Shown here: positions 903 to 59,064 of the stretch, in pieces | How positions within the stretch are numbered: position 1 is the stretch's first letter | Layout of the letters: each line of letters begins with the position of its first letter | Virus record (IMG/VR): IMGVR_UViG_3300031885_000006 | Span: 12,890-76,889 of that record | Source: a virus | Direction: 5' to 3' (one strand) | DNA: 64,000 nt | Position numbers and translations under genes: made by a program | Notes under the pieces: generated by a model | Database searches by the model: none | The model's input: the letters and a program-made list of their open reading frames with translations, nothing else | What the model was told of the DNA's origin: nothing

Positions 903-1484
903 TTACGTCAATGCCAGAATTTCTTCGAATTTGGAGAAGCTTTCAATGCCGAATCTTTGACGAATGAGTTCAAGTGCGGCGAATCCATACTGTTGGGCAC
1001 AAACACGAGAAACAAGTTTTTCTTGTCCGTACCGACTAACCATTTGCTCGGCTATTTCGGCCCATGTCATTTCATTCATAAAGTGATCATAGAGAATTTT
1101 TTTATTTCTTATATCTTTCTCTGTGTCATCTTTGTGATCTTTGAACATATCTTCAATAACAACGCCAACCACCAATTTATCAATTGTTGCTGGAGTTGTT
1201 GCTGGACAAAGCTCTGAATCTATGGAAACAACATTTCCTTGTCGTTTTTGACGCTTTTGTCGTCTCCAACGTTGAATTAATGATTTTTTAATACAAACAA
1301 CAGCATAGGTGGAAAACAAACCCACTTCAGGTTTATATTCTTTGTATGCATTGATAAGGGCCAAAACGCCTTCACTATATTCCTCAGAGTCTTCAGTATT
1401 AACGCCCTTTGGTACGTATTTAGACACGACCATGCGAACAAGGCCCAAGTGGTCCTCTGCTTTAATTATCGTTTCCATTTCCAT
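903..1484 (-). CDS. Sigma-70 family RNA polymerase sigma factor
   Basis: Region 2 motifs HLGLVRMVV..EGVLALINA..Y.P..G.FSTYA and a C-terminal HTH (MTWAEIAE). Confidence 0.8.
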   Translation of the reverse strand: MEMETIIKAEDHLGLVRMVVSKYVPKGVNTEDSEEYSEGVLALINAYKEYKPEVGLFSTYAVVCIKKSLIQRWRRQKRQKRQGNVVSIDSELCPATTPATIDKLVVGVVIEDMFKDHKDDTEKDIRNKKILYDHFMNEMTWAEIAEQMVSRYGQEKLVSRVCAQQYGFAALELIRQRFGIESFSKFEEILALT

Positions 1485-1562
1485 TTCAAATCACACCCAA
1501 TCGCTCAGGCGAAGTCACAATACAGCAACCCAAGCTAACAATATACTATATTTATAAACAAT

Positions 1563-1595
1563 AAAAAAGCCCGTTTTCTAAAAACGGGCTTTTTT
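1563..1595. terminator. Intrinsic terminator, bidirectional; ends the Ro60 operon
   Basis: aaaaaagcccgtttt-cta-aaaacgggctttttt inverted repeat flanked by A and T tracts. Confidence 0.85.
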
Positions 1596-1600
1596 AAAAA

Positions 1601-1658
1601 CCAAGACGAGTATCGATAAGAAGCCTTTTGGTAATGTATTCCTATCTAGCATTCTTGG
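1601..1658 (-). ncRNA. Minimal Y-RNA-like hairpin, copy 1
   Basis: Minus strand reads CCAAGA-AUG..GAUAGGAA-loop-UUCUUAUC..ACUCG-UCUUGG. Near-identical to 1671-1726 with compensatory changes in the closing stem; lies downstream of Ro60. Confidence 0.65.
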
Positions 1659-1670
1659 ATATTTTAAAAA

Positions 1671-1726
1671 CCGGACGAGTATCGATAAGAAGTTTTTTTT
1701 GCAATGTATTCCTATCTGCATTCCGG
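1671..1726 (-). ncRNA. Minimal Y-RNA-like hairpin, copy 2
   Basis: Minus strand reads CCGGA-AUG..GAUAGGAA-loop-UUCUUAUC..ACUCG-UCCGG. Confidence 0.65.
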
Positions 1727-1738
1727 CATATTTTTACA

Positions 1739-2191
1739 CTAATTACATTTTTGCTTTTTGGTAAATAATTCTGACAGATCATTCAAACTAGGTTCAAATA
1801 TACACAATTTATAACCAATCACCAACACCATTGGATGATCAAGCACCATCCTGCCGCATCCACCATTACAAACATCCATTCTAGCAGTATTACAATGTTT
1901 GGCTGATTTGTAAACAACCTCTTTGGGCAATTTAGCTTCATGCACCAAATTACAACGCAAAAACTTATAACAAAAAGCAGCCAATGTGTAATGCTTTTTT
2001 CCAATTAAAAATTTTCTTTTATCTTCCGGCATCACCGCTGACATAACCGCTCGGAATGCGGCACCATCTTTCAATTTAGGACATCTTAGACGAGAAACAC
2101 CTGCCACTGCGAGTAAAACACTAATTAATGCTCCTTCATAAAATTCATTGTCATAAAGACAAGCAGCTTCCTTCAACCTAGTTCTAATCAT
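1739..2191 (-). CDS. Hypothetical protein (RxxxxH, HEPN-like motif RCNLVH)
   Basis: 150-aa ORF overlapping the upstream stop (ATGA); contains LRCNLVHEA. Confidence 0.55.
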   Translation of the reverse strand: MIRTRLKEAACLYDNEFYEGALISVLLAVAGVSRLRCPKLKDGAAFRAVMSAVMPEDKRKFLIGKKHYTLAAFCYKFLRCNLVHEAKLPKEVVYKSAKHCNTARMDVCNGGCGRMVLDHPMVLVIGYKLCIFEPSLNDLSELFTKKQKCN

Positions 2192-3042
2192 TTTCCTCCA
2201 AAATTTTTATACCATGCTTGATGACACGCAAGTTTTGTTTTTAACTCAAAACCATTTAGTTGTTCCCATTTCCTTTCAAGGCCGGGAATGTCTAAAATCA
2301 TTATTTTTTGCAATATTGCAAACGCTCTTGCTCCAGTTATTTTGTAATCTGAAACTTTTCTAGTCTTTCGTCGTCTAGCTTTTGCCCGCATTTTCCCAGC
2401 AGGTGGAACTATCTCATCAAAAACAGATTGAATCCAATTTAATACATCAAAAGTTCCAGTAAAACTTACTTCTAAACGACCTTTATCAAATCTTATGCAA
2501 CCATCACCATCAAGATAACCTTTGATAAAAGCCAACTTATGGTTCACATCACTTAAATTCGGCGGCTGCAAGATAAGTGATTTTTTACGGACAATATTGA
2601 AATTCCTTTGCAACGCCTCTACAACTCGGGTTGCACTACAAATTTCAACAATAGCTGTATACTTATCTTCTCCTGTATGGAAATACTTGCCTTTCCTAAT
2701 TTTTACATTGCCTGTGTATTTGATATCGTCAGCGAATTTTTGAATGTGTTTAACATCATCAGATTTAAACGCCAAAAAAAGATAATAGCTGTTATCACGT
2801 ACTTTTCTGACCCAACCATCTGCTGCTAATACTCCAGCCCAATAACAATTCCCAACATCTGGTTCATCAAAATAATTTTCATTATGTTGATACTTTTTAA
2901 GACCTTTTTTCAATCCTAAAATATGAGCGTGATTTGTAATTGCACTTGGAGTCTTACCAAGTATTTCGGCTATTTCACTTCTATTTTTAGAAGGATATAG
3001 CTCCCTAAGTTTTTCCTCGTCTTCAAGATTCCACTTTTTCAT
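2188..3042 (-). CDS. Free-standing LAGLIDADG homing endonuclease
   Basis: Two motifs, YWAGVLAADG and FIKGYLDGDG, plus an N-terminal HTH. Confidence 0.85.
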   Translation of the reverse strand: MKKWNLEDEEKLRELYPSKNRSEIAEILGKTPSAITNHAHILGLKKGLKKYQHNENYFDEPDVGNCYWAGVLAADGWVRKVRDNSYYLFLAFKSDDVKHIQKFADDIKYTGNVKIRKGKYFHTGEDKYTAIVEICSATRVVEALQRNFNIVRKKSLILQPPNLSDVNHKLAFIKGYLDGDGCIRFDKGRLEVSFTGTFDVLNWIQSVFDEIVPPAGKMRAKARRRKTRKVSDYKITGARAFAILQKIMILDIPGLERKWEQLNGFELKTKLACHQAWYKNFGGK

Positions 3043-3096
3043 GTTATGCCTTATACAAGATAGATTTCTATCTTATATAGGCACCAACATGAAAAT

Positions 3097-4674
3097 TTAA
3101 ATTTCAATCTTTTCGATTACGTCTACCCAATGGTCTGCTGACGCACCATATTTGATAAAATCAGCAATGACATCAAATGATGCATCCGACCAGCCGCCAC
3201 ACTGCAATATTTCCTTGCTAGGAGCTACTTGGCTAGTTGTATTTGGGATCAAGTCCACGCAAACCAATTTCGACTTTTGATTGCGATTCTTGAATTTGCT
3301 CCATTCGTCAAGCATGGATGTGCCACGACCATAATATCCGCCACCATTTACCCAAGATTCGTTATCTGAGATAAAAATAACAGCCGAGCCTTTAGCCTGA
3401 CGACTATTTAATTCACGCAACGCACAACCACAATCTGTGCCACCACCATTGCGAGCAAATTTTTGAGCATTAGTCATAACGGAATCACGAGGATTCACAT
3501 TGACGGAATGCACTACTGTGTCGAACAACAATACTTCTGCTAATTTATTTTTTCGCAACATAGCTGCTGCCACCAAAGCTGCAACGTCCAAACAACGCAC
3601 GGACGAAGTTGCCCCAGCACGATAGCCAGTGATCGCACTTCTCATGGAACCGCTAGTATCTACGCAAATATAAATCTGACCGTCGATAGCTGGGGTGTTT
3701 TCCAACGCAGTTTCCATAGCATCTTGCAACGATTCACGCACCATTGCTGGCACATTTACGGCTGCATTATAAGCCATGAGCAACTGATATGGATAAGCAC
3801 GAGCCTTAACAATTTCCTCTTTGTTGGAAAGTTTATCCGCAACAGCCTTTACCAATTCTGGAGAATTGAATACGCCATATTTTTGGAAATTGTTCAAGTT
3901 CATACGGGTCATCTGCCAACCACCGTGACGTGCTTGGGATTCCCACATTTTACAAGCTTCTTCTTTGGTCAAAATGCTATCGAGCATTCGGAAGTCAACC
4001 TTTGGGATTTCTCCTTCATGGTTCTTCTTGAAGTTTTCATATTGCTGTACGATAGCTGGCAAGTGGCTAAACACTTCTGCTTTGCCGCTAACCAAATAAC
4101 CATACAACGCTCGTTTTTCTTCATTTTCTGGACGTGGACGAGCCATACGCAAAATGTCACGCATAGTTGGATCGTTACCGATACTTGCACGGAAAATGAA
4201 TTCCGAAGTATGAGATTCAAACCAAGTATTGATAGCACGTCGCACACTGCCAGAGCTTACGTTCAATTTCTTTCCAGCTTGACCGGATCGGCCAATTTGG
4301 ATGAAATTACGCAACATCTTGCCGTTATCAATAATTTTTGGAAACACTTGACGGAACAATTTGCTATCCAAAGTTGCAAGTACCGCAACGAGATATGCAG
4401 GCATATCTTTCATATATGCTTTGTTACGAGCATATACAGCTACTTTTGCAATAAACTCTGGATCGCTGTGCAATTTAGCCACAGCTTCCTTAGCAATTTT
4501 AAGATTAGACTCAGCATCTGCATAATAAGTGCCGTTGAAGCAATTAGTGCATGCAATTTGAGCCAACGCATGACGAGAAGTCATTTCGTAAGCTTTGCCG
4601 CCAGCCGCATTTACAGTGTTTGCAGCAGGAATTTCACTAGTTGGCGCACCGCCAAACAAAGATTTATTAGCCAT
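3097..4674 (-). CDS. rsr: Ro60/Rsr RNA-binding protein (TROVE + vWA domains)
   Basis: N-terminal NAAGGKAY, TROVE repeats, vWA MIDAS motif CVDTSGSM, GGGTD and ISDNESW. Confidence 0.92.
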   Translation of the reverse strand: MANKSLFGGAPTSEIPAANTVNAAGGKAYEMTSRHALAQIACTNCFNGTYYADAESNLKIAKEAVAKLHSDPEFIAKVAVYARNKAYMKDMPAYLVAVLATLDSKLFRQVFPKIIDNGKMLRNFIQIGRSGQAGKKLNVSSGSVRRAINTWFESHTSEFIFRASIGNDPTMRDILRMARPRPENEEKRALYGYLVSGKAEVFSHLPAIVQQYENFKKNHEGEIPKVDFRMLDSILTKEEACKMWESQARHGGWQMTRMNLNNFQKYGVFNSPELVKAVADKLSNKEEIVKARAYPYQLLMAYNAAVNVPAMVRESLQDAMETALENTPAIDGQIYICVDTSGSMRSAITGYRAGATSSVRCLDVAALVAAAMLRKNKLAEVLLFDTVVHSVNVNPRDSVMTNAQKFARNGGGTDCGCALRELNSRQAKGSAVIFISDNESWVNGGGYYGRGTSMLDEWSKFKNRNQKSKLVCVDLIPNTTSQVAPSKEILQCGGWSDASFDVIADFIKYGASADHWVDVIEKIEI

Positions 4675-4698
4675 TTTATCTGTTCCTTATGTAAGTTT

Positions 4699-4760
4699 AT
4701 TCCCGTGAGGGACGAGTTTTGAATAATCACTCTTGGGCAAAAGCAATTATCCGGTAAAAC
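4699..4760 (-). promoter_or_regulatory. Structured 5' leader of rsr carrying a permuted copy of the Y-like motif
   Basis: Minus strand has hairpin GGAUAAUUGC/GUGAUUAUUC, then ACUCGUCCC-UCAC-GGGAAU, just upstream of the SD AAGGA (4684-4688). Confidence 0.5.
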
Positions 4761-4790
4761 CATTATACGCCAAAAATATCATTTGTAAAG
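4761..4790 (-). promoter_or_regulatory. Sigma70-type promoter of rsr (TTTACA-N16-TATAAT)
   Basis: Both hexamers visible; 29/30 nt identical to 59376-59405. Confidence 0.8.
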
Positions 4791-4802
4791 TTGAAGAGAA
4801 AA

Positions 4803-5072
4803 TTATTCTGTAATTTCTTCAACACATACAGTTATATTGGAGGCACGATTGACGATTTCATCTCTGCGAGCGTCCATTGCCGAAACAATTTGAGTTTCTA
4901 CAGATTTCACCACAAAAGAACGATTGGTGGTGGCTTCGACACGAAAAGGAATCGCACCAATACAATTCAAAATCTCACCAACATACGGAACCCTATCATC
5001 TGAATAAACAAATTCAAGCCGACCATCAAGTTGGATTTCAATGTCAAATTTAAATTGATTCATAAGGGACAC
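4803..5072 (-). CDS. Hypothetical protein
   Basis: 89-aa ORF filling the gap between ligA and rsr. Confidence 0.55.
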   Translation of the reverse strand: MSLMNQFKFDIEIQLDGRLEFVYSDDRVPYVGEILNCIGAIPFRVEATTNRSFVVKSVETQIVSAMDARRDEIVNRASNITVCVEEITE

Positions 5073-5078
5073 ACATAA

Positions 5079-7226
5079 TTAAGAAAGGTTCAGGATTTTT
5101 TTCAACTCATCGACCGAAATCAACGAAATTCCTAGCTTTTTGGCTTTTTCCGCCTTTGAACCGGCATCGACGCCTTCGACCACGAAATTCGTCGTTTTTG
5201 ACACACTAGAACCGCATTTTCCGCCCTGTTCTTCGATCAAACCCTCATAAAACTTCTTCCCCTTATCAAATCCACCTGTCAGCACGAAATTCTGCCCGGT
5301 AAGTGGACCCGTTTTAGGCAACTCAGGTTCGATAAATTTTAGCAATTCTTTGATGCCCGGCTCATGGCTGGTCAGGTATTCATTGACCAGCATAGCTGTT
5401 TTAATGCCTACGCCTTCAACGGCTGCTAATTGTTCGTCGCTGGCAGCCATAATTTTATCTAAGCTACCAAAATGATCGACCAATGCTTTGCCCGCACTTT
5501 TTCCGGCGCTTTCAATTCCAAAAGCGGCAAATAGTCGCCACAACGGAACAACCTTTTTATTCTTTTGTGCTTTGACGATAGCTTTCTGCAAATCATCGTC
5601 TTCCATCTGATCGGGGCTATCGATCATATGAATTCCAGCTACAGCTAGCATGCCTTCTCGTTCTGAGAGGCCAGAATGGCGACATTGCTGAACAGTTAGT
5701 TTATAAAAATCAGCAAAATGTTTAATCCATCCACCAGCAACCAAATCAGCCACTGTGGATTCTCCCAATCCCAAAACACCAATTGTTTTAAGAAAGTGTA
5801 AAAGTCTGCTGATATTTTTAGCCGGGCAGTCGTCGTTAATGCACATCAACTCATACATATCGCCACCCGATGTTGGCGTATGTTTAACATGCGTTTTTTC
5901 GCCACAGGATGGACAACTGCGTGGGTAATTAATTTCTTCAACCTGAAGATAATCGACTTCTCCACCCGCAACACCGACAACTTTGGGGATAATTTTGCCA
6001 GCTTTTAGAACAATAATTTTCGTTCCAACTGCAATTTTATTTCTAAAAATGAAGCCAACATTATGCAAAGTTGCTCGACGAACTTGGGTGCCTGCCAAGG
6101 GGACCGCATCAAAAATAGCAACAGGTTTAATTGCCCCTGTACGGCCTGTGTTCCACTCAATAGAAGAAACTACAGGGTTGGCTCGTTCTTCAGCGAATTT
6201 CCAGGCAATCTTTCCTTTTGGAGTACCAGTTTTGGGATCTCCGCTACGTCCCAATTGTTCTTGATCTTCTAGATTATTGACGCCGATTACAACGCCATCG
6301 ACTTCATAATCCAGATTAGCAACATTCGCCTCCATTTCGGCTAAATCATAGAAATTGAATTCTTTAATTTGCACAAAGGGGATGCCCAATTCTTTATTGC
6401 AGAATTTGGCACGCTCAATTTCAGTTTTATAAGGCGGGCTATCAATTCCTTCAACGGAATAACCAATAAAACTAAGTCGTTGGTCTTTAACTTTAGCGGG
6501 CTCTTTAAACTGACGAATTCCACCTGCGGTGTGGTTGCGAGGATTGGCACGAAGTTGTTCGCCCAATGATGCCAATTCCTGTTGAACCTTATTGAAATCT
6601 GATAACTTGCAAATCAATTCACCACGAATTGAGCATGTGATCGGCAACTTCAATTCTTCAGGAATATCATGAACATATTTTACTTGTTCGGTAACATCTT
6701 CACCGTGAACGCCATCTTTTGGCCGTAGCCCGGCTTTAACCAATTTGCCTTTTTCGTAATACAAGCCTAGAGCAACGCCATCAAGTTTGTAACTTTGATA
6801 AAACGTATTTCTTGGATAGGTGACAACTTCGTTGTTGAAGGTACGTTCTTTTTGTTGAACGCCATCAATTTCTTTGGCAGCCAAATCAAAAACTTTATTT
6901 TTACCATCCAATTCAACGGTGCAATCGTTCAGCCACTTAAAAAGCTGCTCTTCTTGGACATCAAGATCTTCGTGACTTGCTTTAGCAATACTGGTGAGGG
7001 GCGGATGATGCTTCATCTTTTTGACGGCACTACTGGCCTTGGATGCCGTCACGGTATCGAACAATTTGGCATTTGGATTCAAAGCCTTCAATGCTCGACG
7101 CATCGAATCATATTCACCATCACTAACGATTTCACCCGTATCTGGATGAGTACAATCATCACCCACTTCATAAAGTGTGTCTAGGTGAGCGATAACACGT
7201 TCTAATAATTGAGCTTGAGTTTCCAT
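5079..7226 (-). CDS. ligA: NAD-dependent DNA ligase
   Basis: KLDG adenylation motif, RGE, DGVV, TGRTG, ATLHN, KAGKIIP, Zn finger CPSC..C..C, HhH and BRCT. Start moved to ATG 7226 (GGAG upstream). Confidence 0.95.
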   Translation of the reverse strand: METQAQLLERVIAHLDTLYEVGDDCTHPDTGEIVSDGEYDSMRRALKALNPNAKLFDTVTASKASSAVKKMKHHPPLTSIAKASHEDLDVQEEQLFKWLNDCTVELDGKNKVFDLAAKEIDGVQQKERTFNNEVVTYPRNTFYQSYKLDGVALGLYYEKGKLVKAGLRPKDGVHGEDVTEQVKYVHDIPEELKLPITCSIRGELICKLSDFNKVQQELASLGEQLRANPRNHTAGGIRQFKEPAKVKDQRLSFIGYSVEGIDSPPYKTEIERAKFCNKELGIPFVQIKEFNFYDLAEMEANVANLDYEVDGVVIGVNNLEDQEQLGRSGDPKTGTPKGKIAWKFAEERANPVVSSIEWNTGRTGAIKPVAIFDAVPLAGTQVRRATLHNVGFIFRNKIAVGTKIIVLKAGKIIPKVVGVAGGEVDYLQVEEINYPRSCPSCGEKTHVKHTPTSGGDMYELMCINDDCPAKNISRLLHFLKTIGVLGLGESTVADLVAGGWIKHFADFYKLTVQQCRHSGLSEREGMLAVAGIHMIDSPDQMEDDDLQKAIVKAQKNKKVVPLWRLFAAFGIESAGKSAGKALVDHFGSLDKIMAASDEQLAAVEGVGIKTAMLVNEYLTSHEPGIKELLKFIEPELPKTGPLTGQNFVLTGGFDKGKKFYEGLIEEQGGKCGSSVSKTTNFVVEGVDAGSKAEKAKKLGISLISVDELKKILNLS

Positions 7227-7228
7227 GT

Positions 7229-7408
7229 TTATTCTCCTACTAGACGGCATCGCCATGCTTCGACGATAGAATCGTCTTCCTCAAAAGAAAAAGCTGGCTT
7301 CCCCAGGGGGTGTTCCACCACGTCTTTTACGGTGTTGGCTTTATAACTAGATTTAAAAGGTTTGCCGGAAATCTTGACTACTTTTTTACCAATATATTCT
7401 TCAAACAT
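7229..7408 (-). CDS. Small hypothetical phage protein (59 aa)
   Basis: Hand-translated MFEEYIGKKVVKISGKPFKSSYKANTVKDVVEHPLGKPAFSFEEDDSIVEAWRCRLVGE; fills the gap exactly. Confidence 0.7.
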   Translation of the reverse strand: MFEEYIGKKVVKISGKPFKSSYKANTVKDVVEHPLGKPAFSFEEDDSIVEAWRCRLVGE

Positions 7409-7410
7409 AA

Positions 7411-7761
7411 TTAGGCATCCATAAGGTTGTGATTCGTCAATTTCTCGACGAACCTAATTGCGTACTTCCAGCCTTTATCATCTGGAGTGAAGCGGGCAAT
7501 CGGATAAACGTAGTTTTCTTTTTCATCACCAAAATGTGGATCTAGATTTTTTTGTTTGACCAGATCTACAAATTTAGCTTCATAGACCAGAATTTTCATG
7601 CCATTGTGATTTTTGCAATCAGGGTATCGCAGTTTCAAGATGGCGAAGCCACCATGCTCAAAACAATCGACTAGATCCCACTTGGTGGGATCGGGAACTG
7701 ATTCATTTTTATAGACAATCTGGTATTCTACATCCCTGTGTCTGCTGCCGTAGATGCCCAT
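7411..7761 (-). CDS. Hypothetical phage protein
   Basis: 116-aa ORF with TAATG coupling to infA. Confidence 0.7.
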   Translation of the reverse strand: MGIYGSRHRDVEYQIVYKNESVPDPTKWDLVDCFEHGGFAILKLRYPDCKNHNGMKILVYEAKFVDLVKQKNLDPHFGDEKENYVYPIARFTPDDKGWKYAIRFVEKLTNHNLMDA

Positions 7762-7982
7762 TATTTCATCCTAAATGTAATGCGACCTTGAGTAAGATCA
7801 TATGGTGACACTTCAACCTTTACTTTATCGCCGGGTACAACCCGAATAAAATTCTTTCTGATGCTGCCTGCTAAACGGCACAACAAAACCAATTCTGAGT
7901 CATCGACTTTGACTCTGAATGCACCTTTGACAGCCTCAAGCACTGTGCCCTGAAGTTCTATCGGGGCTTCTTTTTCCTTCAT
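7761..7982 (-). CDS. infA: Translation initiation factor IF-1
   Basis: IELQGTVLEA..FRV..GSIRKNFIRVVPGDKVKVEVSPYDLTQGRITFR. Confidence 0.95.
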   Translation of the reverse strand: MKEKEAPIELQGTVLEAVKGAFRVKVDDSELVLLCRLAGSIRKNFIRVVPGDKVKVEVSPYDLTQGRITFRMK

Positions 7983-7995
7983 TTGCTCTCCTAAA

Positions 7996-8023
7996 AGTAT
8001 ACTACGATTTTAAAACTTGTGAA
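7996..8023 (-). promoter_or_regulatory. Promoter TTCACA-N16-TATACT for infA
   Basis: Same architecture as the other sigma70-type promoters in the window. Confidence 0.6.
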
Positions 8024-8024
8024 C

Positions 8025-8246
8025 TTATTCTTCGTGAAGTTCAACCATGACTGTTCTGGAGATATCTCCAGATCCATTCCAACCATAAAGATATTTTTTA
8101 TTATGCCACTTAAAAGTCACCCAGCTTTTAGACAACTCTTTAATTTCGGTTGAATTTGGCGGAAGTTCCTGTTGCCATTGCAACAAACGACCTTCTGGAG
8201 TCGTACAGCCACAGAGCAACAAGCTAATTAGAAATAGCTTTTTCAT
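8025..8246 (-). CDS. Small lipoprotein
   Basis: MKK, hydrophobic stretch and lipobox LLCGC. Confidence 0.6.
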   Translation of the reverse strand: MKKLFLISLLLCGCTTPEGRLLQWQQELPPNSTEIKELSKSWVTFKWHNKKYLYGWNGSGDISRTVMVELHEE

Positions 8247-8890
8247 TGATGATGATCTCCTGTAGTGTGACCGGGTCTGTCCTTCAATATGTCTATGACT
8301 TCTTCTAACGCAAATGGCCGATAAGCTCCCAACAATTTGGCGGCATTATCAACGCCAATATCCATTGAACGCCGACCGGGCATGATTTTATCAGCCCATC
8401 GTTCAGCAGTGCTATGGCTATGAGCATAGCACAGGATCGCTTTATGATGATGCTTATTCCAAATAGCCCCACAATAATGATCAAATACAAAGAATTGATT
8501 ATTATATGTGGTAAACGCTCTATGCCCATTCGTCTCAAATATCGAAGGCATATCATCATAAAAGTCATGATTGCCAAAAATCTGATGGACTCGCCTGCAA
8601 TTAATCCGATCCCTAAATCTTTTTACTGTTTTGTAATAATCGTATTTAGCACCAAAGCAAAAGTCACCAACATGATAAAGTTCATCATCTTCTCCAACTA
8701 GCTTGTTGATTTCATCAAAAAGGTAGTCATTCATCCGTTCAACGGACTCACGACTAACCCTAAAATCAACTCCTTCATCTAGTTGCTTTTGTTCTTTTTC
8801 ATTCAACCCAGGACGCCGACAATACTTCATGATGTTCGCATGATTTATGTGAAGATCTGAAGTTACGAATTTTCTTCTTTCTTTTTTCAT
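8243..8890 (-). CDS. Calcineurin-like metallophosphoesterase
   Basis: SDLH, VGDF, GNHD and AHSH motifs. Confidence 0.88.
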   Translation of the reverse strand: MKKERRKFVTSDLHINHANIMKYCRRPGLNEKEQKQLDEGVDFRVSRESVERMNDYLFDEINKLVGEDDELYHVGDFCFGAKYDYYKTVKRFRDRINCRRVHQIFGNHDFYDDMPSIFETNGHRAFTTYNNQFFVFDHYCGAIWNKHHHKAILCYAHSHSTAERWADKIMPGRRSMDIGVDNAAKLLGAYRPFALEEVIDILKDRPGHTTGDHHQ

Positions 8891-8897
8891 GCAGCAT

Positions 8898-8925
8898 ATT
8901 CTACCACATAAATTCGATTTGTAAA
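8898..8925 (-). promoter_or_regulatory. Promoter TTTACA-N16-TAGAAT
   Basis: Hexamers lie directly upstream of the ATG at 8890. Confidence 0.6.
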
Positions 8926-8929
8926 CTAG

Positions 8930-8965
8930 AAAAAGCTCCTTTAACGCAAGGCTAAAGGAGCTTTT
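8930..8965. terminator. Intrinsic terminator
   Basis: aaaagctccttta...taaaggagctttt inverted repeat. Confidence 0.8.
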
Positions 8966-9005
8966 ATGTTGCTTCCCAATTAATTGAAATCACCCCCTTC
9001 AGAGT

Positions 9006-9323
9006 TTAAGTGGAAGCAAATTCATCGATGACTTTTTGAATCGCAGCTTCACTTTGCAGCCCGATTAGTGTTTTGACCACAGTGCCATCTTTAAAAAACA
9101 ACATTGTGGGCAAAGATGCTATTTGATATTGCGTTGCAATGCCGACACTATCATCAGTATTGAGTTTGAGCAATTTGAATTTATCGCCATTTGATGCAAC
9201 CAATCTTTCTAGCAATGGTGTCAATGCTCGACAAGGCCCGCACCAGGGAGCAAAAAAATCGACTAAAACTAGGCCGGTGGCCTGCATTACTTCTTGATCC
9301 CAATCTTCTTCATTTATATTCAT
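9006..9323 (-). CDS. trxA: Thioredoxin
   Basis: DFFAPWCGPC; 105 aa. Confidence 0.95.
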   Translation of the reverse strand: MNINEEDWDQEVMQATGLVLVDFFAPWCGPCRALTPLLERLVASNGDKFKLLKLNTDDSVGIATQYQIASLPTMLFFKDGTVVKTLIGLQSEAAIQKVIDEFAST

Positions 9324-58478: not shown

Positions 58479-59064
58479 TGGAGCCGAGGGGAGTCGATAT
58501 TCCCCACACCTATTACTAGGTGAATGGACTATATCATTGCCATAGCTTTTCAGCCTTAGGCATCGGGCGCTTATCTGGTTATTAAGAGGGCTAAACCTCT
58601 CCAGTAGTCTCTACACCTTCCTGCGATGTATCGCAAGCTTGGCTCGGTATTGCCCCAGAGGGGTTTCACCGAATTCACCCAATATTTTTTTCTAAACCTT
58701 TCGATTTAGATGGGCTCGACTTCCGAACCCCTTTCCAGAATAACTTGTAAAAAGACCTCTACATGCTTGTCTTATTGTTTTTGCTTTCGCATCTCGCCAT
58801 TCGTGTCCACATAAAGCTAAGGACAATTCACAGCCAGCAGAATCTTTGTCTCGTTTAGGTATCTCTGCGTGAACCTAAACCAGCCGGATTTTTTTTCAGG
58901 TTTTCAAGACGCTACCAGCATCGCTTCTATCAACCTGTCGCCACCTTAAGCAGCGAGAGCTAGAGTGTTGCCTGTTAAGGCTTGAACGATTTTTAAAGCG
59001 GCCCTTCGTTCAACCGCTGCATGCCATCTATCTACTGCATTACCTGTCGATGCCTGACGGCCCC
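58479..59064 (-). ncRNA. ssrA: tmRNA, intron-interrupted; tag peptide (A)GNTLALAA
   Basis: Acceptor stem GGGGCCG/CGGCUCC-A with G3:U; T-arm AGGGG-UUCGACU-CCCCU after intron removal; pk1-like knot; tag frame 58972-58946 ends LAA-UAA; 357 nt spliced; CCA not fully encoded. Confidence 0.93.
58498..58726 (-). mobile_element. ORF-less group I intron (229 nt) in the tmRNA T-loop
   Basis: P1 GGGUUCG/CGAGCCC with U:G; P/Q AAUUCGGUGAAAC..AAUACCGAGC; P7 GAGACUA/UAGUCC; P3 GGGUG/CGCCC; P9 CACCUA-GUAA-UAGGUG. Confidence 0.9.

What the first reader, a model, noticed from the sequence alone, without database searches (positions are those of the whole stretch)
1563..4790. Phage Ro60 operon ending in two miniature Y-RNA-like hairpins
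Seen: one transcription unit runs promoter (4761-4790), rsr, LAGLIDADG gene, 150-aa ORF, two ~57-nt repeats, terminator. Both repeats fold the same way. The closing stem covaries (CCAAGA/UCUUGG versus CCGGA/UCCGG), the GAAUG...ACUCGUC internal motif is invariant, the upper stem GAUAGGAA/UUCUUAUC is conserved, and only the apical loop varies. Known: Ro60/Rsr binds Y RNAs encoded nearby, and bacterial YrlA RNAs have a Ro-binding stem plus a tRNA-like effector domain. Inference: these are Y RNAs reduced to the Ro-binding stem, acting as gates, decoys or regulators of phage or host Ro60. The match to the GNCGAAN(0-1)G consensus is only partial (GAAUG).
Basis: partly seen in the sequence, partly recalled or inferred. 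Interest (0 to 1): 0.88.

Follow-up and report, generated by a model that had tools for sequence, protein, structure and literature searches.

The report
Short Y RNA genes beside phage Ro60

Summary
Observation confirmed. The minus strand holds a promoter-like site, rsr, a LAGLIDADG-type endonuclease gene, a 150-aa ORF, two hairpins (1670-1727 and 1601-1658) and a terminator.

The hairpins share the Rsr-binding module of Rfam YrlA/YrlB: closing stem, GAAUGC, upper stem, UACAU, then U(U/C)GUC and the closing stem. They lack the tRNA-like domain, so they are YrlB-type.

A covariance model built from 15 short phage copies finds only these two in the window. It finds a third copy in the same phage's tRNA array. 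It gives 67 hits in 22 of 41 phage rsr loci and 189 hits in 73 of 80 bacterial rsr loci, every one on the rsr strand. On 69 phage copies, 15 of 16 pairs show compensatory changes, with 94% of cells paired against 61% when shuffled.

In large phages these RNAs form tandem arrays, often interleaved with tRNA genes 1-4 nt apart.

Phage Ro60 with hairpin Y-like RNAs is published (Chen 2014; Thermus phage phiLo 2025). This is therefore a new member of a known kind.

The more novel by-product is a miniature or circularly permuted copy of the motif next to the SD or start codon of rsr in many loci, including this one. It suggests Rsr autoregulation.

No RNA or binding data exist.

The parts
4762..4789 (-). 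Sigma-70-like promoter of the rsr unit
   Evidence: TTTACA-16 nt-TATAAT, 11 of 12 matches. This is a consensus match only; no transcript data exist.
4699..4715 (-). Leader hairpin UCGUC-CC-UCAC-GG-GAAU. It is a circularly permuted copy of the two internal-loop strands plus closing helix of the Y module, 24 nt before the rsr AUG. Candidate Rsr operator.
   Evidence: Sequence read. The same permuted pattern ends within -24 to +9 nt of the start codon in 7 non-redundant phage rsr lineages, against about 0.1 expected. A direct mini-form lies just 5' of the SD in 16 of 80 bacterial rsr leaders, against 1.3 expected. The covariance model R1 does not score it. Binding is untested.
3097..4674 (-). rsr: Ro60/TROVE RNA-binding protein, 525 aa
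   Evidence: Pfam TROVE plus vWA_Ro60. NCBIfam Rsr 1.3e-19, below its cut-off. Full-length matches to solved Ro60 structures 9KOP/9L5Y, 2NVO and 1YVP.
3036..3095 (-). 29-nt-arm inverted repeat between rsr and the endonuclease gene. It covers the endonuclease start codon.
   Evidence: the repeat finder I1, 79% complementary. Its role is not tested; hiding the endonuclease RBS/start or acting as a processing site are inferences.
2188..3042 (-). LAGLIDADG-type homing endonuclease gene. Probably a mobile insertion, not part of the Ro/Y system.
   Evidence: Pfam LAGLIDADG_3 3e-5 and PHROG endonuclease 7.9e-27. It is absent from other rsr loci except weak matches in L090 and L033. A relative's DNA contig joins 1723 to 3350, skipping this gene and ORF150 (weak evidence).
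1739..2191 (-). 150-aa ORF of the Rv1289-like family (PF27329), function unknown
   Evidence: No hit in local Pfam, PHROGs or NCBIfam. The protein atlas places it with Rv1289-domain clusters at score 0.96 and TM 0.81. It was not found near rsr in any of about 120 other loci.
1670..1727 (-). Y RNA hairpin copy 1, YrlB-type: closing stem (G)CCGGA/UCCGG(U), GAAUGC, upper stem GAUAGGAA/UUCUUAUC, UACAU plus an A-rich loop, AUACUCGUC
   Evidence: R1 scores it 64.9 bits, E 4.8e-15, with filters off. Fold. Family covariation.
1601..1658 (-). Y RNA hairpin copy 2, YrlB-type, closing stem CCAAGA/UCUUGG
   Evidence: R1 scores it 53.2 bits, E 7.3e-12. The Rfam YrlB model scores it 16.1 bits, E 0.09 for the genome. 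Fold.
1562..1596 (-). Intrinsic terminator closing the unit
   Evidence: 16-bp stem, 3-nt loop and T-run.

Best explanation
The two repeats are genes for hairpin-only Y RNAs of the YrlB type. They are probably made from the 3' end of the rsr transcript, as one two-hairpin RNA or as two ~57-nt RNAs.

Each copy presents the conserved Rsr-binding module. This is a closing helix, then an asymmetric internal loop with 5' strand GAAUGC and 3' strand (A/G)AUNNU(U/C)GUC, then an 8-9-bp upper helix capped by an invariant UACAU and an A-rich loop.

The phage Ro60 ring, and possibly a host Rsr, binds this module on its outer face, as in other Ro-Y RNA complexes. The RNA has no tRNA-like effector arm. It therefore most likely occupies or gates Ro60, or sets how much free Ro60 there is, rather than tethering it through a tRNA-like arm. 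The A-rich loop may still contact a partner such as PNPase.

Shown: sequence and structure homology, covariation, and strict linkage to rsr by position and strand.

Inferred: transcription, processing, Ro60 binding and the regulatory role.
For: 1. The layout and unpaired motifs match the Rfam YrlA and YrlB consensus lines. The Rfam YrlB model hits the phage's third copy at 32.8 bits and window copy 2 at 16.1 bits.

2. Model R1 was built from 15 short phage copies. It finds only the two hairpins in 64 kb with filters off; the next best score is 13 bits. It finds a third copy at G000:C1:1716-1786, on the same strand, in the phage's tRNA array.

3. R1 gives 67 hits in 22 of 41 phage rsr loci and 189 hits in 73 of 80 bacterial rsr loci. 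All 256 are on the rsr strand and none is on the other strand.

4. On 69 phage copies, 94.4% of cells are paired against 60.8% when shuffled. 15 of 16 pairs show changes on both sides. The covariation score is 0.871 against 0.127 or less for slid registers. A G-U pair at one upper-stem position in 46 of 69 copies marks the RNA strand.

5. GAAUG, UACAU and UNGUC are 96-100% conserved.

6. In other large phages the hairpins lie 0-7 kb downstream of rsr on the same strand. Some sit between tRNA genes with 1-4-nt spacers, so tRNA processing would release them.

7. Published precedent exists. Salmonella, M. smegmatis and D. radiodurans Rsr bind hairpin Y RNAs (PMC4201824). Thermus phage phiLo Ro60 binds a two-hairpin Yrl1 and a one-hairpin Yrl2 encoded beside it (PMC12135203).
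Against: - No RNA data exist: no public RNA run holds the stretch. There is no binding test.
- Both copies score far below the Rfam gathering scores (YrlB 97, YrlA 69) and gave no Rfam Y-family hit in the local scan.
- The strict GNCGAAN0-1G motif is missed by one base in both copies.
- The loop is A-rich, not pyrimidine-rich as described for YrlB and Yrn2.
- R1 finds nothing in three cultured Ro60-encoding phages, Mx1, Karimac and Forza. The module is therefore not universal.
- The covariation alignment was fitted to the model, which favours the modelled structure.
Confidence: 0.85

Rival explanations
1. The hairpins are cis-acting 3'-end or processing elements of the transcript. They would act as stabilisers against 3' exonucleases, as RNase punctuation marks like those between tRNAs, or as weak terminators. 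They would work without Ro60.
For: They sit between the last ORF and the terminator, and each is followed by a U5 run. In other phages, copies abut tRNA genes within 1-4 nt, like spacers in a processed precursor.
Against: Stabilisers or punctuation marks would not need invariant unpaired GAAUG, UACAU and UNGUC across phyla. Nor would they be tied to rsr in 73 of 80 bacterial loci, always on its strand. The terminator scan does not call them. They share the module of RNAs shown to bind Rsr (PMC4201824).
Confidence: 0.07
2. The repeats act at the DNA level, for example as a protein operator, a recombination site or a homing-endonuclease target duplicated next to the LAGLIDADG gene.
For: They are tandem direct repeats with internal dyad symmetry beside a mobile endonuclease gene.
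Against: Compensatory changes keep the pairing while the sequence drifts. G-U pairs are strand-specific: G-U in 46 of 69 copies at one position. All 256 family hits are on one strand relative to rsr. Most loci that hold the element have no LAGLIDADG gene.
Confidence: 0.02
3. They are Y RNAs aimed at the host rather than the phage protein. As decoys they would soak up the host's Rsr or PNPase to blunt host RNA surveillance or defence. The phage Rsr would use other RNAs not present in this 77-kb fragment.
For: The module is shared with bacterial rsr loci, whose Rsr proteins are about 50% identical to the phage protein. One 57-kb phage rated 100% complete carries a long Y-like RNA but no rsr (L064). 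The phiLo study proposes hijacking of host PNPase (PMC12135203).
Against: In 6 of 6 phage contigs with short copies, an rsr gene lies within 7 kb on the same strand. That points to the phage's own protein as the partner. The host is unknown.
Confidence: 0.06

Closest known systems
YrlB, with M. smegmatis YrlB and D. radiodurans Yrn2: hairpin Y RNAs bound by Rsr (Rfam RF02565; Chen et al. 2013/2014, PMC4201824)
   Same: Encoded near rsr on its strand. A single long hairpin without a tRNA-like domain. The layout is the same: closing stem, GAAUGC, upper stem, UACAU, then the 3' strand ..UUUGUC and the closing stem.
   Different: About 57 nt against 78 model positions, because the third helix after UACAU is missing. 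The loop is A-rich rather than pyrimidine-rich. The 3' strand reads ACUCGUC instead of UUUGUC. Scores are 16-33 bits against a gathering score of 97. The gene is in a phage, in tandem, and a further copy lies in a tRNA array.
Yrl1 and Yrl2 of Thermus phage phiLo, bound by phiRo60 (PMC12135203)
   Same: Phage-encoded Ro60 with stem-bulge-stem hairpin RNAs encoded beside it. Yrl1 has two such hairpins in one RNA, like the tandem pair here. The protein is the best PDB match of the window's Rsr (1.6e-17).
   Different: In phiLo the RNAs lie upstream of the gene, and the motif cited is CGAA. Here they lie 1.4 kb downstream, behind two inserted ORFs, and read GGAA and AGAA. I could not compare the phiLo RNA sequences directly.
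YrlA (Rfam RF02553): Y RNA with a tRNA-like domain
   Same: It shares the Rsr-binding stem, acggCgaAUGC ... AcUuGucGccg. Long versions with a T-arm inserted in the apical loop occur in related phages (L025, L064, L069, L029 10633-10727).
   Different: The window copies have no D/T-arm insert, and no long form was found in the 77-kb record.
Metazoan Y RNAs (Rfam RF00019)
   Same: A Ro60-binding helix formed by the 5' and 3' ends. Chen 2014 noted that GNCGAA resembles the vertebrate GGUCCGA. One relative (L003 copy a) even reads GUCCGAAUG / CUUGUCGGAC.
   Different: There is no Rfam hit. Transcription is not by Pol III, and there is no large pyrimidine-rich internal loop.

Membership tests
Bacterial/phage Y RNA, hairpin class (YrlB-like) | Encoded within a few kb of rsr, on the same strand | tested here: met
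   The copies lie 1.37 and 1.44 kb downstream of the rsr stop on the minus strand. All 256 family hits elsewhere are also on the rsr strand.
Bacterial/phage Y RNA, hairpin class (YrlB-like) | 5'/3' closing stem carrying the GNCGAAN0-1G motif on the 5' strand (Chen 2014) | tested here: inconclusive
   Copy 1 reads GCCGGAAUG and copy 2 reads UCCAAGAAUG. GAAUG is present, but the C of CGAA is G or A. That position is paired and covaries in the family: C-G 45, U-A 15, A-U 6, G-C 3 of 69.
Bacterial/phage Y RNA, hairpin class (YrlB-like) | Stem, asymmetric internal loop and upper stem, supported by covariation | tested here: met
   94.4% of cells are paired, 15 of 16 pairs show double changes, and the score is 0.871 against 0.127 or less for slid registers. 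The alignment was fitted to the model.
Bacterial/phage Y RNA, hairpin class (YrlB-like) | Score at or above the Rfam RF02565 gathering threshold (97 bits) | tested here: not met
   16.1 bits for copy 2, and copy 1 is not listed. The third copy in the genome scores 32.8 bits. The reported YrlB orthologues are Salmonella-only (PMC4201824), so a narrow Rfam model is my inference for the low scores.
Bacterial/phage Y RNA, hairpin class (YrlB-like) | Small pyrimidine-rich apical loop (description in Chen 2014) | tested here: not met
   The loops are UACAUUGCAAAAAAAAC and UACAUUACCAAAAGGC, which are A-rich. Family loop columns are mostly A.
Bacterial/phage Y RNA, hairpin class (YrlB-like) | Bound by Rsr, with accumulation that depends on Rsr | not testable with these tools
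   This needs EMSA or co-immunoprecipitation and Northern blots. No RNA run holds the stretch.
YrlA (RF02553) | tRNA-like domain (D-, T- and acceptor-like arms) inserted between the strands of the Rsr-binding stem | tested here: not met
   The apical part is a 17-nt loop. ARAGORN and Rfam tRNA find nothing in the window. YrlA gave no hit on the hairpins.
Metazoan Y RNA (RF00019) | Match to the Rfam model | tested here: not met
   No Y_RNA match was listed at E up to 10. The bulged-C helix and Pol III features that define the family from prior knowledge were not separately assessed here.

The most novel reading that the evidence does not exclude
Ro60 (Rsr) may regulate its own translation through a mimic of its Y RNA binding site in the rsr mRNA leader, with the co-transcribed Y hairpins titrating the protein.

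In this window the leader reads ACUCGUC-CC-UCAC-GG-GAAU (4699-4717, minus strand), 24 nt before the AUG. It contains the two internal-loop strands and the closing helix of the Y module in circularly permuted order.

The same permuted hairpin overlaps the SD or start codon in 7 independent phage rsr lineages, against about 0.1 expected. A direct mini-form, GGAAUGC-N5-8-UUGUCC, lies just 5' of the SD in 16 of 80 bacterial rsr genes, against 1.3 expected.

If true, this would be an autoregulatory loop of the ribosomal-protein or ThrRS type for Ro60. It would also give hairpin-only Y RNAs a simple job: setting the level of free Ro60.
Probability: 0.35. Interest if true: 0.65.

Novelty: new member of a known kind. 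Interest (0 to 1): 0.42.

Why it matters
The finding adds unannotated Y RNA genes to a large uncultured phage. Its main value is a working covariance model for the Rsr-binding module.

That model shows three things. Hairpin-only Y RNAs, so far described in a handful of organisms, are the commonest form next to rsr in many phages, and they are frequent in bacteria. They usually come in tandem arrays. In big phages they are woven into tRNA gene arrays, where tRNA processing enzymes would cut them out.

This ties phage Ro60 systems to the phage tRNA supply and to RNA surveillance. It gives concrete RNAs for binding and structural work.

The recurring Y-motif mimic at the rsr ribosome-binding site is a testable lead on how Ro60 levels are set. 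My searches of the held literature found nothing on this.

Tried and rejected
- Rfam at gathering and at E up to 10 on the region gave no Y-family hit. The hits were only terminator-driven chance matches such as STnc430 and Thr_leader.

- megablast and blastn against GenBank phages found no relative of the region. The only matches were to the terminator.

- A pattern scan of viral contigs (GAATGC..AGATRG..TACAT) gave 64 stretches, mostly chance matches inside ORFs. About ten were true members.

- I asked whether the rsr leader is an ordinary family member. It is not: R1 with filters off does not score it. Only the permuted-motif analysis picks it up.

It has no Pfam, PHROG or NCBIfam hit. The atlas places it in the Rv1289-like PF27329 family. 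It is absent from all other rsr loci. I did not fold it.

- RtcB and RNA-ligase genes were not found in the 77-kb record. The record is about 15% complete, so this says little.

- Expression: no RNA holder is listed. Only DNA contigs could be laid.

- R1 on the cultured phages Mx1, Karimac and Forza found nothing, either locally with filters off or genome-wide.

- A possible YrlA at G000:C1:6810-6907 (19 bits) is a T-arm-like piece inside a small ORF next to tRNA-Gly. It is not convincing.

- Two reviews on bacterial Y RNAs (PMC10870794, PMC6047535) are not held.
Full report
**What is there**

On the minus strand of the window the following lie in order.
- A strong sigma-70-like promoter at 4789-4762, 11 of 12 matches.
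- rsr at 3097-4674.
- A LAGLIDADG-type endonuclease gene at 2188-3042.
- A 150-aa ORF at 1739-2191, overlapping the previous gene by 4 nt.
- Two direct repeats at 1670-1727 and 1601-1658.
- A 16-bp intrinsic terminator at 1596-1562.

The rsr product is a full-length Ro60. It matches Pfam TROVE and vWA_Ro60. End-to-end matches to solved structures are phiLo phiRo60 at 1.6e-17, D. radiodurans Rsr at 3.8e-15 and X. laevis Ro60 at 1.3e-7.

The window is part of a 76.9-kb IMG/VR virus record rated 15% complete. It therefore probably comes from a very large phage. DNA runs that hold it are sediment metagenomes.

**The repeats**

Both fold into the same shape.
- A 5-6-bp closing stem.
- An asymmetric internal loop, with AUGC(U)A on the 5' strand and GAUACUCG on the 3' strand.
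- An 8-bp upper stem, GAUAGGAA/UUCUUAUC.
- A 17-nt loop that starts with UACAU and is A-rich.

The closing stems differ by compensatory changes, CCGGA/UCCGG against CCAAGA/UCUUGG.

**Relatives**

The closest phage Rsr, at 55% identity (L003/L004), is followed directly by a tRNA-like element and then by a run of the same hairpins. The unpaired motifs are kept and the upper stem has changed in a compensatory way: GAUGGUC/GACUAUC instead of GAUAGGAA/UUCUUAUC.

A pattern scan of viral contigs brought in further members from unrelated large phages: L022, L029, L033 and L050. It also brought in long versions in which a T-arm-bearing, tRNA-like insert replaces the apical loop: L025, L064 and L069.

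Many copies lie inside tRNA gene arrays. In L050 the order is tRNA, hairpin, tRNA, hairpin, tRNA, with spacers of 1-4 nt. RNase P cutting at the next tRNA, plus 3' trimming of the previous one, would release the hairpins. That processing step is my inference.

Every contig with short copies also has rsr within 7 kb on the same strand.

**Link to known Y RNAs**

The Rfam consensus lines settle the identity.
- YrlB reads ..GGcgcGaAUGC-UgGcCgGGAU-UACAUc...AUCCcGgCuA-UuuAUUUGuC-gcgC..
- YrlA reads acggCgaAUGC..[tRNA-like part]..AaAcUuGucGccg.

This is the same module as in the window: closing stem, GAAUGC, upper stem, UACAU, then U(U/C)GUC and the closing stem.

The Rfam YrlB model itself hits a third copy in the same phage, at G000:C1:1712-1790, about 11 kb beyond the left edge of the window. 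That copy is on the same strand, inside an array of 11 tRNA genes. It scores 32.8 bits, E 2.6e-6 for the genome. Window copy 2 scores 16.1 bits. All are far below the gathering scores. YrlB orthologues were reported only from Salmonella serovars (PMC4201824), so I infer a narrow Rfam model. The YrlA model needs the tRNA-like part. This explains why the plain Rfam scan was empty.

**A model of the module**

I built covariance model R1 from 15 short phage copies.
- In the whole window with filters off, it finds only the two hairpins, at 64.9 and 53.2 bits. The next best score is 13 bits.
- In 41 phage rsr loci it gives 67 hits at E of 0.01 or less, in 22 loci and with up to 8 per locus.
- In 80 bacterial rsr loci it gives 189 hits in 73 loci. 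These come from Acidobacteriota, Planctomycetota, Verrucomicrobiota, Proteobacteria, Clostridia and others.
- All 256 hits are on the rsr strand.
- Three cultured Ro60 phages (Mx1, Karimac, Forza) have rsr inside tRNA arrays but give no R1 hit. The module is widespread but not universal.

On 69 phage copies, 94.4% of cells pair, against 60.8% after shuffling. 15 of 16 pairs show changes on both sides. The covariation score is 0.871, against 0.127 or less for slid registers. That alignment was fitted to the model, which favours it. The MAFFT-only alignment of 15 copies already gave 11 of 13 pairs with double changes.

GAAUG, UACAU and UNGUC are 96-100% conserved. Lengths are bimodal: 45 copies are 59-79 nt long and 24 are 82-136 nt long.

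**What it is and how it probably works**

The repeats are hairpin-only Y RNAs. It is established that Ro60/Rsr binds the conserved stem of Y RNAs, and that bacterial species carry both a tRNA-like Y RNA and a hairpin Y RNA (PMC4201824). It is also established that a phage Ro60 binds hairpin Yrl RNAs encoded beside it, one of them a two-hairpin RNA, and can form complexes with host PNPase (PMC12135203).

By analogy, the window's pair is bound by the phage Rsr. Because the RNAs lack an effector arm, they most likely gate or buffer the protein. These last steps are inference, because no RNA or binding data exist.

The LAGLIDADG gene and ORF150 look like passengers. Neither accompanies rsr elsewhere. 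ORF150 belongs to the uncharacterised Rv1289-like family. A relative's DNA contig appears to join the hairpin region to rsr without them (weak evidence).

**By-product: a motif mimic in the rsr leader**

I tested it.

The leader reads ACUCGUC-CC-UCAC-GG-GAAU (4699-4717). These are the two loop strands and the closing helix in permuted order.

A regex for U(U/C)GUC, a helix of at least 4 bp, a loop, then GAAU gives 59 hits in 1.53 Mb. Seven non-redundant phage rsr lineages have it ending within -24 to +9 nt of the start codon, where about 0.1 is expected. In L119 the AUG of GAAUG appears to be the start codon, judged by similarity of the N-terminus. The SD lies in the loop or in the stem.

Bacterial rsr leaders instead carry a direct mini-form, GGAAUGC-N5-8-UUGUCC, just before the SD. 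It occurs in 16 of 80 loci against 1.3 expected. Many of these loci are related Acidobacteriota, so they are not independent.

I found nothing on Rsr autoregulation in the held literature. This is the most novel reading. It is unproven.

**Verdict**

The kind is already known, so this is a new member of a known kind, with useful extensions: the breadth of the short class, the arrays woven into tRNA clusters, and the leader mimic.

Noticed in passing
window 4699-4717 (-), and leaders of L080, L085, L087, L102, L107, L109, L119; bacterial L126-L201: A permuted form (phages) or direct mini-form (bacteria, L078) of the Y-module loop strands lies at the SD or start codon of rsr. It is strongly enriched over background. 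It is a candidate autoregulatory operator.
   Followed up: partly
G000:C1:1712-1790 (-), about 11.1 kb left of the window start (L125 1712-1790): A third YrlB-like hairpin of the same phage (R1 49.7 bits, Rfam YrlB 32.8 bits). It lies inside an array of 11 minus-strand tRNA genes (G000 1456-9273).
   Followed up: yes
L003/L078, L028, L105, L106, L109, L110, L050: Large phages carry arrays of 3-10 short and long Y-like RNAs beside rsr. In L050 they alternate with tRNA genes at 1-4-nt spacing.
   Followed up: partly
L003 6870-6998: A tRNA-like gene (Rfam tRNA 43.8 bits; ARAGORN finds none) has a 61-nt insertion in the anticodon loop. It sits directly between rsr and the first Y hairpin.
   Followed up: no
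window 58506-59057 (-): An Rfam tmRNA match (58733-59057, 62 bits) abuts a group I intron match (58506-58736, 74 bits), and ARAGORN calls no tmRNA. This may be an intron-interrupted or otherwise unusual phage tmRNA gene.
   Followed up: no
window 3036-3095: An inverted repeat with 29-nt arms (79% complementary) lies between rsr and the LAGLIDADG gene and covers the endonuclease start codon. It could keep the endonuclease silent or mark a processing site.
   Followed up: no
L064 (IMGVR_UViG_3300028806_000013, 57 kb, rated 100% complete): This phage has one long YrlA-like RNA (R1 46 bits) but no rsr gene. It may use the host's Rsr.
   Followed up: partly
L206 (Myxococcus phage Mx1), L207 (Streptomyces phage Karimac), L208 (Gordonia phage Forza): In these cultured phages the Ro60 gene sits inside or next to a tRNA array, and in Forza next to a tmRNA as well. 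No Y RNA is annotated, and R1 finds none.
   Followed up: partly
window 1739-2191 (-): The 150-aa ORF matches the uncharacterised Rv1289 domain family (PF27329) by language-model features (0.96) and by predicted structure (TM 0.81). It is not linked to rsr elsewhere.
   Followed up: partly
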